Part shown: in pieces, positions 46,094-49,000 of the stretch
How the letters are laid out: every line of letters begins with the position of its first letter
Numbering within the stretch: position 1 is the stretch's first letter
NCBI RefSeq assembly: GCF_988243305.1
Contig: NZ_OZ547136.1
Direction: 5' to 3' (one strand)
Length of the DNA stretch: 64,000 nt
Made by a program: the position numbers

Positions 46094-49000
46094 CGCTGCG
46101 GCGACGATCCTTTACACCTTTATTGGCGGTTTCCTCGCGGTGAGCTGGACTGATACTGTACAGGCCAGCCTGATGATTTTTGCCCTGATCCTGACGCCGG
46201 TTATCGTAATCATTAGCGTTGGTGGGTTTGGCGACTCGCTGGAAGTGATCAAACAAAAGAGCATCGAAAACGTCGATATGCTCAAAGGGCTGAACTTTGT
46301 TGCCATTATCTCGCTGATGGGCTGGGGGCTGGGTTACTTCGGGCAGCCGCACATCCTGGCGCGTTTTATGGCGGCGGATTCTCACCACAGCATTGTCCAT
46401 GCGCGTCGTATCAGTATGACCTGGATGATCCTCTGCCTGGCAGGGGCGGTGGCTGTCGGCTTCTTTGGTATTGCTTACTTTAATGAGCACCCGGCGGTAG
46501 CAGGTGCGGTAAACCAGAACGCCGAGCGCGTGTTTATCGAACTGGCGCAAATTCTGTTTAACCCGTGGATTGCCGGGATTTTGCTGTCGGCGATTCTGGC
46601 TGCGGTGATGTCAACCTTAAGTTGCCAGCTGCTGGTGTGCTCCAGTGCGATTACCGAAGATCTGTACAAAGCGTTTCTGCGTAAACATGCCAGCCAGAAA
46701 GAACTGGTGTGGGTAGGGCGTGTGATGGTGCTGGTGGTGGCGCTGGTGGCTATTGCGCTGGCGGCGAATCCGGAAAACCGCGTGCTGGGCTTAGTGAGCT
46801 ACGCGTGGGCAGGCTTTGGCGCGGCGTTTGGTCCGGTGGTGCTGTTCTCGGTGATGTGGTCACGCATGACGCGCAATGGTGCGCTGGCGGGGATGATCAT
46901 CGGTGCGCTGACGGTTATCGTCTGGAAGCAGTTCGGCTGGCTGGGTCTGTACGAAATTATTCCGGGCTTTGTCTTTGGTAGTATCGGGATTGTAGTGTTT
47001 AGTTTGCTGGGTAAAGCGCCGTCAGCGGCGATGCAAAAACGCTTTGCCGAGGCCGATGCGCACTATCATTCGGCTCCGCCGTCACGGTTGCAGGAAAGCT
47101 AAGGGACTTAGCCTGCGGCGGTTTTGTTTGGCTTCAGCAGCGGGTTGCGCTCCCTTAATGTGCCTCGCCATATAAATTGAATGGTGCAGGGGGCGGCCAA
47201 TCGCCGCCACCCCCTGCACCCCGGGCTCTGGCGAACAAAATCGCCGCTGCGCGGTACCTTCAGCTTATCCCCTTCGGCTACCGGGTCGGGCGCGAGGTAA
47301 TGTCCTATAAGACGCGCCCTCAGCCCACATCCATGTGGGCTGCCCTGGCCTTCGGGGAACGCTTCAGCGACTTTGACGCCACCAACACCCGAGCTGTTAT
47401 TATGTTCCGGGCAAAAAGTTAGATTTGATAATCGCGGATGGACGAAATTGCTTGATACACCCGCTTATCAGTTTTACATGGAAGCTCTGATGCATTGAGT
47501 CTGGACAGTTTTGTCGGCTGGATAAGGCGTTTACGCGGCATCTGGCAAGAACACATGGCTCGTTGTAAACAATCCCATCTTTGTACCTGGAATAATCGTT
47601 TATATCCCTTGCCATTACCTCTCTTTGTTTACATTCCAACATCATTTTATAAACATTCCGCTTGTATTTTTCTTTGCCGTAATGATAATCGCTATCACTG
47701 CGATTTACTTTTCTTTGCATAGATTGACTCAGAAAAACGTTTAAGGGTGGGTGGCATGTTTGTTCCATTTCTCATTATGTTGCGCGAAGGACTTGAAGCC
47801 GCGCTGATTGTCAGTTTGATTGCCAGCTATCTTAAGCGTACCCAGCGAGGCCGATGGATTGGTGTGATGTGGATTGGCGTGTTGCTTGCCGCTGCGTTGT
47901 GCCTGGGCTTGGGTATCTTCATTAACGAAACCACCGGCGAATTTCCGCAAAAAGAACAGGAACTGTTTGAAGGTATCGTGGCGGTGATCGCCGTGGTGAT
48001 CCTTACCTGGATGGTTTTCTGGATGCGCAAAGTGTCGCGCAACGTCAAAGTACAACTGGAGCAGGCAGTCGATAGCGCATTGCAGCGTGGGAATCATCAT
48101 GGCTGGGCGCTGGTGATGATGGTCTTTTTTGCCGTTGCAAGGGAGGGGCTGGAGTCGGTCTTTTTCCTGCTGGCGGCGTTTCAACAAGATGTCGGGATCT
48201 GGCCGCCGCTGGGTGCAATGCTCGGTCTTGCTACAGCCGTGGTGCTCGGCTTCCTGCTCTACTGGGGCGGTATTCGCCTCAATCTTGGTGCATTTTTTAA
48301 ATGGACCAGCCTGTTTATTCTCTTCGTCGCCGCAGGGCTGGCGGCTGGTGCCATTCGCGCATTTCATGAAGCCGGATTGTGGAACCACTTTCAGGAAATC
48401 GCCTTCGATATGAGCGCGGTGCTCTCAACTCACTCGCTGTTTGGCACGCTGATGGAAGGGATTTTTGGCTATCAGGAAGCGCCGAGCGTCAGCGAAGTCG
48501 CCGTCTGGTTTATTTATCTCATCCCGGCGCTGGTGGCATTTGCTCTGCCACCACGCGCAGGGGCGACAGCGTCTCGCTCCGCGTAACAAATACGACGCAA
48601 ACTCTTGCTTAGTTACAACATACTTTAAAGGGATAGTCTCGTCATGACCATTAACTTCCGCCGTAACGCATTGCAGTTTAGCGTGGCTGCGCTGTTCTCT
48701 TCTGCTTTTATGGCTAACGCCGCTGATATTCCGCAGGTCAAAGTCACTGTGACAGATAAACAGTGCGAACCGATGACCATTACGGTTAACGCCGGGAAAA
48801 CACAGTTCATTATTCAGAACCACAGCCAGAAGGCGCTGGAGTGGGAGATCCTCAAAGGCGTGATGGTGGTGGAAGAGCGGGAAAATATCGCCCCTGGTTT
48901 TAGCCAGAAAATGACGGCGAATTTACAGCCTGGCGAATACGATATGACCTGCGGTCTGCTGACTAACCCGAAAGGGAAGTTGATCGTCAAAGGTGAGGCA

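What the first reader, a model, noticed from the sequence alone, without database searches (positions are those of the whole stretch)
47103..47460. Structured GC-rich segment downstream of putP
A nearly perfect 14-18-bp GC-rich inverted repeat (47174-47209) lies about 70 bp after the putP stop, followed by degenerate REP-like fragments and no convincing ORF. It could be a transcript-stabilising or terminator structure, or a decayed repeat element.
Basis: seen in the sequence. Interest (0 to 1): 0.2.

Follow-up and report, generated by a model that had tools for sequence, protein, structure and literature searches.

The report
Known TRIP1/RRS repeat after putP
The GC-rich hairpin after putP is part of one copy of TRIP1, a known E. 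coli repeat also called the replication risk sequence (RRS), so the finding is real but already described.

Summary
The inverted repeat is real. Its arms lie at 47183-47197 and 47206-47220, about 10 nt to the right of the coordinates given. It is not a stand-alone hairpin. It is one helix of a 257-bp, 62% GC element at 47144-47400 that recurs at the lysO-aqpZ and dusC-yohP loci in nearly every E. coli genome.

The literature names this element TRIP1 (Rudd 1999; Li et al. 2024). Its full-length copies at lysO and dusC are the 'replication risk sequences' (RRS) of Pham et al. 2023/2024. They fold in single-stranded DNA, carry a G-quadruplex on one strand, and cause post-replication gaps.

The putP site is the published TRIP1b locus: it starts 41 bp after the putP stop and ends 355 bp before efeU. 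K-12 carries a 146-bp internally deleted form there. This window carries a full-length form that lacks 11 bp, found in about 6% of complete genomes; about 17% have some full-length form.

The G-rich strand here is the leading-strand template, the weaker orientation in published tests.

The sequence after the hairpin is TRIP1 body, not REP. On the putP strand the hairpin has no U-tract, so it is not a canonical terminator. Verdict: already known, low interest.

The parts
45594..47102 (+). putP (sodium/proline symporter), the upstream neighbour. Its stop codon ends at 47102.
   Evidence: A 502-aa ORF. RefSeq annotates putP at the matching position of a genome that is 100% identical over the intergenic query.
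47103..47143 (.). 41-bp spacer between the putP stop and TRIP1. It holds GCGGCGGTTTTGTT (47115-47128), which is complementary to AACAAAATCGCCGC inside TRIP1 (47234-47247).
   Evidence: [quoted passage not shown] The complementary pair is I2. It is of marginal significance (BLAST-short E = 0.083).
47144..47400 (.). Full-length TRIP1 repeat (RRS family) at the TRIP1b locus: 257 bp, 61.9% GC. It lacks 11 bp (GCAGGGAGCGC) that are present in 18 of the 20 aligned copies.
   Evidence: It aligns over its whole length to copies at lysO-aqpZ and dusC-yohP. Boundaries fit Li et al. 2024: 41 bp after putP and 355 bp before the efeU ATG at 47756. BLAST finds only one copy in the window.
47144..47152 (.). 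5' half of the closing helix of the element. It pairs with 47375-47382.
   Evidence: Consensus structure helix 1: 7 pairs, 99.3% of cells paired across 20 copies.
47183..47220 (.). It is helix 3 of TRIP1: a 12-bp core at 47186-47197/47206-47217 with an 8-nt loop.
   Evidence: In three copies two of its pairs change together from C-G to A-T.
47204..47223 (-). G-quadruplex-forming motif of the RRS, CGGGGTGCAGGGGGTGGCGG. It has 2 mismatches to the published GGGGGTGCAGGGGGCGGCGG.
   Evidence: It is the only match in the window and none is expected by chance. The motif and its polymerase-blocking activity are published. My G4Hunter-style score is 1.80 here against 1.84 for the K-12 lysO copy.
47221..47254 (.). 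Helix 4 of TRIP1: GGCGA-ACAAAA-TCGCC extended by outer pairs.
   Evidence: It holds an 18-mer that is invariant in all 20 copies.
47268..47358 (.). Second branched domain of TRIP1 (helices 5-10), including the perfect hairpin 47321-47330/47333-47342. Most of the 125 bp deleted in K-12 TRIP1b (about 47213-47337) lies here and in helix 4.
   Evidence: (I6). There are compensatory changes in helices 5, 8 and 10.
47516..47552 (+). Degenerate single REP-like hairpin. It lies outside the finding and is not part of TRIP1.
   Evidence: Weak naRNA4 (REP-derived) match, 27.2 bits, E = 0.014. It is absent from the TRIP1-less allele.
47756..48586 (+). efeU, the downstream neighbour, using the RefSeq ATG start.
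   Evidence: The ATG position was read.

Best explanation
Window 47144-47400 is a full-length copy of the E. coli TRIP1 repeat, the same family as the 'replication risk sequences' RRS-lysO and RRS-dusC. It sits at the known TRIP1b site just after putP.

The element is non-coding. One strand, the window's - strand, carries a G-quadruplex motif.

Published work shows that such elements block DNA polymerases and cause post-replication single-strand gaps on the lagging strand. The effect is strongest when the G-rich strand is the lagging-strand template.

In this window the + strand is the leading strand, so the G-rich strand is the leading-strand template. I infer that this copy is at most a weak gap trigger, acting through its C-rich strand. 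Beyond that it is a recombination target and a deletion-prone polymorphic segment. Any effect on the putP mRNA 3' end would be secondary.

Shown here: identity, boundaries, conserved fold, orientation and allele spectrum. Taken from the literature: polymerase block and gap formation. Inferred: what this particular copy does.
For: 1. Repeat family. The segment matches 3 places per genome at the median, in 5425 of 5426 complete E. coli genomes. The other places are lysO-aqpZ and dusC-yohP.
2. Named in the literature. TRIP1b is described as 41 bp after the putP stop and 355 bp before ycdN/efeU. The window boundaries fit this exactly. Pham et al. equate RRS with TRIP1 and mention the third, partial copy.
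3. G4 motif. The published motif is present once, on the - strand at 47204-47223, with 2 mismatches, and its G4 propensity score is kept.
4. Conserved fold. Of 68 consensus pairs, 99.0% of cells are paired. Seven pairs show compensatory changes against 2.1 +/- 0.9 in shuffles (0 of 500 reach 7) and 0-1 in slid controls. Single-stranded DNA folding z-scores are -4.2 and -4.8.
5. Orientation. GC skew of the + strand is positive overall, with a cumulative value of +0.43. From my own knowledge of the K-12 map, putP lies on the + strand in the right replichore.
6. Function of the family. The element blocks Pol I, II and IV at the G4. [quoted passage not shown] No peak is seen in vivo when the RRS is inverted. 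In vitro the inverted element still makes gaps at about 66% frequency and about half the size.
7. Not coding. Copies differ by 1-nt and 11-nt indels.
Against: - No experiment has tested the putP copy. Pham et al. found the exact 20-nt G4 motif only at the two RRS in K-12, and their strain has the deleted TRIP1b.
- This copy has two G4-motif substitutions, a C-A mismatch in the main hairpin, and an 11-bp deletion that removes a small conserved hairpin. Its activity could therefore be lower than that of RRS-lysO or RRS-dusC.
- About a fifth of sampled E. coli genomes lack TRIP1 at this locus, and about half carry the deleted form. This argues against any essential role for this copy.
- The replichore assignment rests on GC skew over 64 kb plus synteny, not on a mapped origin.
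Confidence: 0.9

Rival explanations
1. The hairpin acts at the RNA level as the putP transcription terminator, or as a 3'-end stabiliser that protects putP mRNA from exonucleases.
For: - The element starts 41 nt after the putP stop.
- The + strand RNA folds very stably: -147.5 kcal/mol, z = -4.2.
- E. coli alleles without TRIP1 carry a canonical intrinsic terminator 45 nt after the putP stop (13-bp stem plus GTTTTTT). TRIP1 alleles have no such terminator, so something else must end or stabilise the transcript.
- Li et al. note that all five TRIP1 loci lie 38-96 bp after a stop codon.
Against: - On the + strand the hairpin is followed by CCGGGCTCTGG, with no U-tract. The scan flags it only on the - strand.
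- The element occurs in both orientations at lysO-aqpZ and dusC-yohP. It also keeps about 250 bp of conserved structure, far more than a terminator needs.
- One-sided changes are G-U-compatible about equally often on each strand, so there is no sign of selection on one transcript strand.
- The held Term-seq supplement lists no putP 3' end after the gene.
Confidence: 0.15
2. TRIP1 encodes a structured non-coding RNA transcribed from its own promoter, and the conserved fold is an RNA fold.
For: - Compensatory substitutions support a conserved secondary structure.
- Li et al. predict a 'double-Y' RNA fold and suggest that TRIP1 may be transcribed.
- On the - strand the main hairpin is followed by a T-rich tail, ATTCAATTTA.
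Against: - No Rfam family matches.
- No sigma-70-like promoter was found in 46900-47900 on either strand.
- Watson-Crick covariation is equally expected for a single-stranded DNA fold, which has direct experimental support.
- There is no strand bias in G-U versus A-C changes.
- The element is found in both orientations relative to its neighbouring genes.
Confidence: 0.07
3. It is a decayed REP/BIME element.
For: It is GC-rich, palindromic and intergenic. A degenerate REP lies 116 bp further downstream, at 47516-47552.
Against: The REP consensus with up to 3 mismatches is absent from 47103-47460. The whole segment aligns instead to TRIP1 copies. The unit is about 260 bp rather than about 35 bp.
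Confidence: 0.01

Closest known systems
TRIP1b, the putP-downstream TRIP1 repeat of E. coli K-12 (Rudd 1999; Li et al. 2024, PMC10888264)
   Same: Same locus and same boundaries: 41 bp after the putP stop and 355 bp before efeU/ycdN. Same orientation relative to putP, and the same flanking sequence.
   Different: K-12 TRIP1b is 146 bp long with a 125-bp internal deletion. The window copy is 257 bp, keeps that 125 bp, and lacks a different 11 bp. About 17% of complete genomes (945 of 5426) carry a full-length form at this locus. Li et al. describe TRIP1b only as the partial form.
RRS-lysO and RRS-dusC (TRIP1a/TRIP1c), the replication risk sequences (Pham et al. 2023, PMC10287960; 2024, PMC11194060; Kusi-Appauh et al. 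2026 preprint, PMC13308219)
   Same: Homologous over the whole element: 86-93% identity to lysO and dusC copies of various strains. Same helices, and the same G4 motif on the same strand of the element.
   Different: - A different chromosomal position. From my own knowledge of the K-12 map, it lies about 0.16 Mb terminus-side of RRS-lysO, not paired symmetrically about dif.
- The G-rich strand is on the leading-strand template rather than the lagging-strand template.
- Two G4-motif substitutions and an 11-bp deletion.
- Gap formation has never been tested at this copy.
REP/BIME elements
   Same: Intergenic, GC-rich and palindromic, and often found just after genes.
   Different: There is no sequence similarity. 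The TRIP1 unit is about 7 times longer, has 1-10 places per genome rather than hundreds, and contains several helices.
Rho-independent terminators
   Same: A stable GC-rich stem-loop shortly after a stop codon.
   Different: There is no U-tract on the putP strand. The true putP intrinsic terminator is seen only in TRIP1-less alleles.

Membership tests
TRIP1 repeat (Rudd 1999; Li et al. 2024) | Sequence homology to TRIP1a and TRIP1c over the whole element of about 265 bp | tested here: met
   Full-length alignment to the lysO-aqpZ and dusC-yohP copies. Identity is 86-93% to those copies and 97.6% to another full-length putP copy.
TRIP1 repeat (Rudd 1999; Li et al. 2024) | Occupies one of the five fixed loci. 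For TRIP1b this is 41 bp after the putP stop and 355 bp before ycdN/efeU. | tested here: met
   The element spans 47144-47400, the putP stop ends at 47102, and the efeU ATG is at 47756.
TRIP1 repeat (Rudd 1999; Li et al. 2024) | GC-rich (62-65% G+C) with a very stable predicted multi-branch fold | tested here: met
   61.9% GC. Fold z-scores are -4.2 to -4.8. The consensus structure has 11 helices with covariation.
TRIP1b as described for K-12 | 146-bp partial form lacking an internal 125 bp | tested here: not met
   The window keeps the 125 bp. The K-12-type deletion is seen in strain D3 and in about half of genomes. The window therefore holds a full-length allele at the TRIP1b locus, not TRIP1b in the strict sense.
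RRS (replication risk sequence; Pham et al.) | G-quadruplex-forming motif GGGGGTGCAGGGGGCGGCGG on one strand | tested here: met
   Present at 47204-47223 on the - strand with 2 mismatches. Four G-runs are retained, and the score is 1.80 against 1.84 for the K-12 lysO copy. Actual G4 folding was not tested.
RRS (replication risk sequence; Pham et al.) | G4 strand is the lagging-strand template | tested here: not met
   The + strand has positive GC skew and is therefore the leading strand. The G-rich strand is the - strand, which is the leading-strand template.
RRS (replication risk sequence; Pham et al.) | Triggers RecA/SSB-bound post-replication gaps in vivo and blocks DNA polymerases in vitro | not testable with these tools
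   This needs ssGap-seq or primer extension. Published data exist only for the lysO and dusC copies and for ectopic insertions.
RRS (replication risk sequence; Pham et al.) | One of a pair placed symmetrically, about 650 kb either side of dif | not testable with these tools
   The window does not contain dif. By synteny this is the putP locus, not lysO or dusC, so it would be an additional copy rather than one of the pair.
REP/BIME | Match to the ~35-nt REP consensus GCCKGATGCGRCGY-N5-RCGYCTTATCMGGCCTAC | tested here: not met
   No match with up to 3 mismatches in 47103-47460. The only window match is at 28930-28966.
Intrinsic (Rho-independent) terminator of putP | GC-rich stem-loop followed directly by a U-tract on the transcribed strand | tested here: not met
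   The scan flags the hairpin only on the - strand. The + strand tail is CCGGGCTCTGG.

The most novel reading that the evidence does not exclude
In the roughly 17% of E. coli that carry a full-length TRIP1 after putP, this copy might act as a third RRS in reverse orientation. It would make lower-frequency lagging-strand gaps through its C-rich strand, about 0.16 Mb inside RRS-lysO. That would change local topology and recombination near the Ter macrodomain edge.

It might also have taken over the role of the lost putP terminator. In that case one element would work both as a DNA replication obstacle and as an mRNA 3' structure.
Probability: 0.15. Interest if true: 0.45.

Novelty: already known. 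Interest (0 to 1): 0.2.

Why it matters
The element family is biologically notable. RRS elements are programmed replication obstacles that shape chromosome topology near the terminus.

The family, this locus and its polymorphism are already published. What this window adds is modest:
- It is an example of a full-length allele at the site where K-12 has only a deleted remnant.
- That allele is in the orientation shown to be weaker.
- There is a clear allele series at one locus: full-length, 11-bp-deleted, 125-bp-deleted and absent-with-terminator. This series could serve as a natural experiment on RRS activity and on how putP transcripts end.

For annotation, the practical point is that this segment should be labelled TRIP1/RRS. 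It should not be labelled REP, a terminator or a hypothetical ORF.

Tried and rejected
- Rfam scan of 46900-47900 at E up to 10. Nothing credible covered the element; only a weak REP-derived naRNA4 hit outside it.
- Small-ORF / leader idea. On the - strand the element ends with GGAGCGCAAC-N3-5-ATG, which looks like a Shine-Dalgarno sequence plus start codon. I rejected this because the ORFs that follow differ completely between copies (3 to 9 codons, or open-ended). The 'SD' is also the 5' half of the closing helix that pairs with 47375-47382.
- Inverted TRIP1 remnant in the putP spacer (47115-47128 against 47234-47247). The match is marginal (E = 0.083) and no analogous remnant exists at other loci. 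I treat it as probably chance.
- Strand of a putative RNA, inferred from G-U versus A-C one-sided changes. The counts are about equal, so this was uninformative.
- Term-seq evidence for a putP 3' end. The held supplement of Adams et al. 2021 lists only a 3' end upstream of putP (the ymdG uORF) and nothing after the gene.
- One literature search failed on syntax.
- Taxonomic reach. An exact 18-mer scan of 100,044 species genomes found true TRIP1 only in Escherichia. The other ~80 hits were unrelated chance matches.

Full report
**Observation.** The window is E. coli. putA runs on the - strand at 41209-45237 and putP on the + strand at 45594-47102. efeU follows from 47756, and efeO and efeB come after it. 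The inverted repeat is real. Its arms are at 47183-47197 and 47206-47220: 15 nt, one mismatch, 8-nt loop. The surrounding 261 nt fold far better than shuffled sequence as single-stranded DNA (z = -4.2 on the + strand, -4.8 on the - strand). The segment is 61.9% GC against 50.1% for the window.

**It is a repeat, not a unique structure.** BLAST of 47103-47460 against 5,426 complete E. coli genomes hit 5,425 of them, with a median of 3 places per genome. The extra places are the lysO-aqpZ and dusC-yohP intergenic regions. Alignment shows one element of about 260-270 bp shared by all three loci. Rfam has no family for it.

**Identity from the literature.** A full-text search found two descriptions.
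- Li et al. 2024 (PMC10888264), following Rudd 1999, call it TRIP1. TRIP1a lies at aqpZ-ybjE(lysO) and TRIP1c after yohI(dusC). [quoted passage not shown]
- Pham et al. (PMC10287960, PMC11194060) independently found the lysO and dusC copies as 222-bp 'replication risk sequences'. They state that these are Rudd's TRIP1, with 'a third partial repeat'.

The window boundaries fit TRIP1b exactly. The element is 47144-47400, which is 41 bp after the stop at 47102 and 355 bp before the efeU ATG at 47756.

**What is particular about this copy.** It is full-length, not the K-12 remnant. It keeps the 125 bp that K-12-type strains lack (strain D3). It lacks 11 bp (GCAGGGAGCGC) that are present in 18 of the 20 aligned copies. 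The same 11 bp are also missing from an unrelated copy in Escherichia sp. MOD1-EC7003, so this looks like recurrent slippage between GCGCAGGG repeats.

Across complete genomes the putP-efeU spacer falls into several classes:

| Allele class | Frequency |
|---|---|
| Window type (11-bp deletion) | about 343 records at 99% identity or more |
| Any full-length form (window type plus the form with the 11 bp) | 945 genomes, 17% |
| K-12-type 125-bp deletion | about half |
| Short spacer with no TRIP1 and no REP | about a fifth of an evenly spaced sample |
| Not resolved (best match lies at another locus, or efeU only) | 4 of 40 sampled rows |

The short allele carries a textbook intrinsic terminator after putP: a 13-bp stem followed by GTTTTTT. 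The TRIP1 alleles have no such terminator.

**Conserved fold.** I collected 20 distinct copies from E. coli lineages, E. albertii, E. whittamii and two unnamed Escherichia species. 99.0% of cells are paired. Seven pairs carry compensatory double changes, against 2.1 +/- 0.9 in column shuffles (0 of 500 reach 7) and 0-1 when partners are slid. Examples:
- In three copies two pairs of the main hairpin change together from C-G to A-T.
- In one copy three pairs of the 47321-47342 hairpin change together.

One-sided changes are G-U-compatible on the + strand about as often as on the - strand. The data therefore do not point to an RNA of one polarity, and they fit a fold of either DNA strand. The diversity is low (90% mean identity), so this is support rather than proof.

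**Mechanism.** This part comes from the literature and was not tested here.
- The RRS G-rich strand contains the motif GGGGGTGCAGGGGGCGGCGG. It stops Pol I, II and IV in vitro and slows Pol III in vivo.
- Placed anywhere in the chromosome with that strand as lagging-strand template, an RRS creates a RecA/SSB-bound gap of about 2 kb.
- Inverted RRS give no such peak in vivo.
- A 2026 single-molecule preprint finds that inverted RRS still cause lagging-strand gaps at about 66% frequency and about half the size, through the C-rich strand.

In the window the motif occurs once, on the - strand at 47204-47223, with 2 mismatches. My G4Hunter-style score for it is unchanged: 1.80 against 1.84 for the K-12 lysO copy. 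GC skew of the + strand is positive overall. From my own knowledge, this agrees with the K-12 map, where putP is on the + strand of the right replichore. So the - strand is the leading-strand template, and this copy is in the 'reverse', weaker orientation. I infer that it is at most a weak gap trigger. Its absence or truncation in most strains argues that it is dispensable.

- 'Decayed repeat element' is right in kind but names the wrong family. There is no REP consensus in 47103-47460. The only REP-like hairpin is at 47516-47552.
- 'Terminator or stabiliser' fails the canonical test, because the hairpin has no U-tract on the putP strand. It also does not explain 250 bp of conserved structure found in both orientations at other loci.
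- A secondary effect on the putP 3' end remains possible, because TRIP1 alleles have lost the canonical terminator. The Term-seq supplement I could reach has no 3' end after putP.

**Verdict.** This is a real feature, correctly spotted as structured and GC-rich, but it is an already described element at an already described locus. The full-length, 11-bp-deleted allele and the allele series at this site are minor additions. Interest is low.

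Noticed in passing
L107 498-526 (E. coli EC476, putP-efeU spacer); corresponds to the gap between window 47107 and about 47580: About a fifth of sampled E. 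coli genomes have a short putP-efeU spacer of about 219 bp. It lacks TRIP1 and the REP, and instead carries a perfect intrinsic terminator (GCAGAGGGCAATC-AGT-GATTGCCCTCTGC followed by GTTTTTT) 45 nt after the putP stop. The TRIP1-bearing alleles have no canonical putP terminator. Which state is ancestral is unknown.
   Followed up: partly
L004/L007 versus L005/L006 (lysO-aqpZ); L003 versus L009 (dusC-yohP): At both RRS loci the element sits in either orientation between the same two genes in different strains and species. The 40-100 bp directly next to it also differ between the two orientations; for example, different hairpins abut the aqpZ stop. Li et al. report the orientation counts but give no mechanism. 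Simple inversion between the two loci would not flip the repeats in place. Natural 'inverted RRS' strains such as O157:H7 at lysO are common.
   Followed up: partly
Genome-contig scan; loci L021, L028, L029, L048, L049, L062-L064, L081, L082, L102, L103: An 18-mer that is invariant in all 20 Escherichia copies (GGCGAACAAAATCGCCGC) was found in true TRIP1 context only in Escherichia species among 100,044 species-representative genomes. The only other true copies were two evident contaminant or MAG contigs. This sits oddly with the published statement that RRS are widely conserved in enterobacteria and nearly identical in Kluyvera. Diverged copies would be missed by an exact match, but near-identical ones should not be.
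   Followed up: partly
window 47115-47128 and 47234-47247: The putP-TRIP1 spacer holds GCGGCGGTTTTGTT, complementary (13 of 14) to the loop and stem of TRIP1 helix 4. In the + strand RNA fold the two form a 16-bp helix that encloses the main hairpin. The partner is removed by the K-12 125-bp deletion. Statistically the match is marginal (E = 0.083).
   Followed up: yes
L002 ~1622-1626; L010 ~3080-3090: Two independent internal deletions of TRIP1 have nearly the same end points, between the short direct repeats CTGC(A)CCCC(C)GG. One is at the putP locus (K-12 type). The other is at lysO-aqpZ, on a 42-kb record annotated as a plasmid that carries chromosomal hcp-lysO-aqpZ-ybjD. The element is prone to slippage deletions.
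   Followed up: partly
window 47516-47552: A single degenerate REP-like hairpin, GCTGGATAAGGCGTTTACGCGGCATCTGGCA, with a weak naRNA4 match (27 bits). It belongs to the same ~480-bp segment that is missing from the TRIP1-less allele.
   Followed up: partly
window 47400-47768 (- strand); L002 1705-2007: Some RefSeq genomes annotate a 100-aa 'hypothetical protein' (WP_001323669.1) on the - strand between TRIP1 and efeU. The window has a 122-aa ORF in the same place. It overlaps the efeU promoter region and is annotated in only some of the genomes that carry this segment. It is probably not a gene.
   Followed up: no
window 28930-28966 (- strand): The only good match to the REP consensus in the window (2 mismatches).
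   Followed up: no
window ~45229-45435; L001 1124-1333: RefSeq annotates a 69-aa hypothetical protein in the putA-putP divergent control region. Adams et al. 2021 list a 3' end after the validated small ORF ymdG, upstream of putP. This suggests uORF-linked regulation of putP.
   Followed up: no
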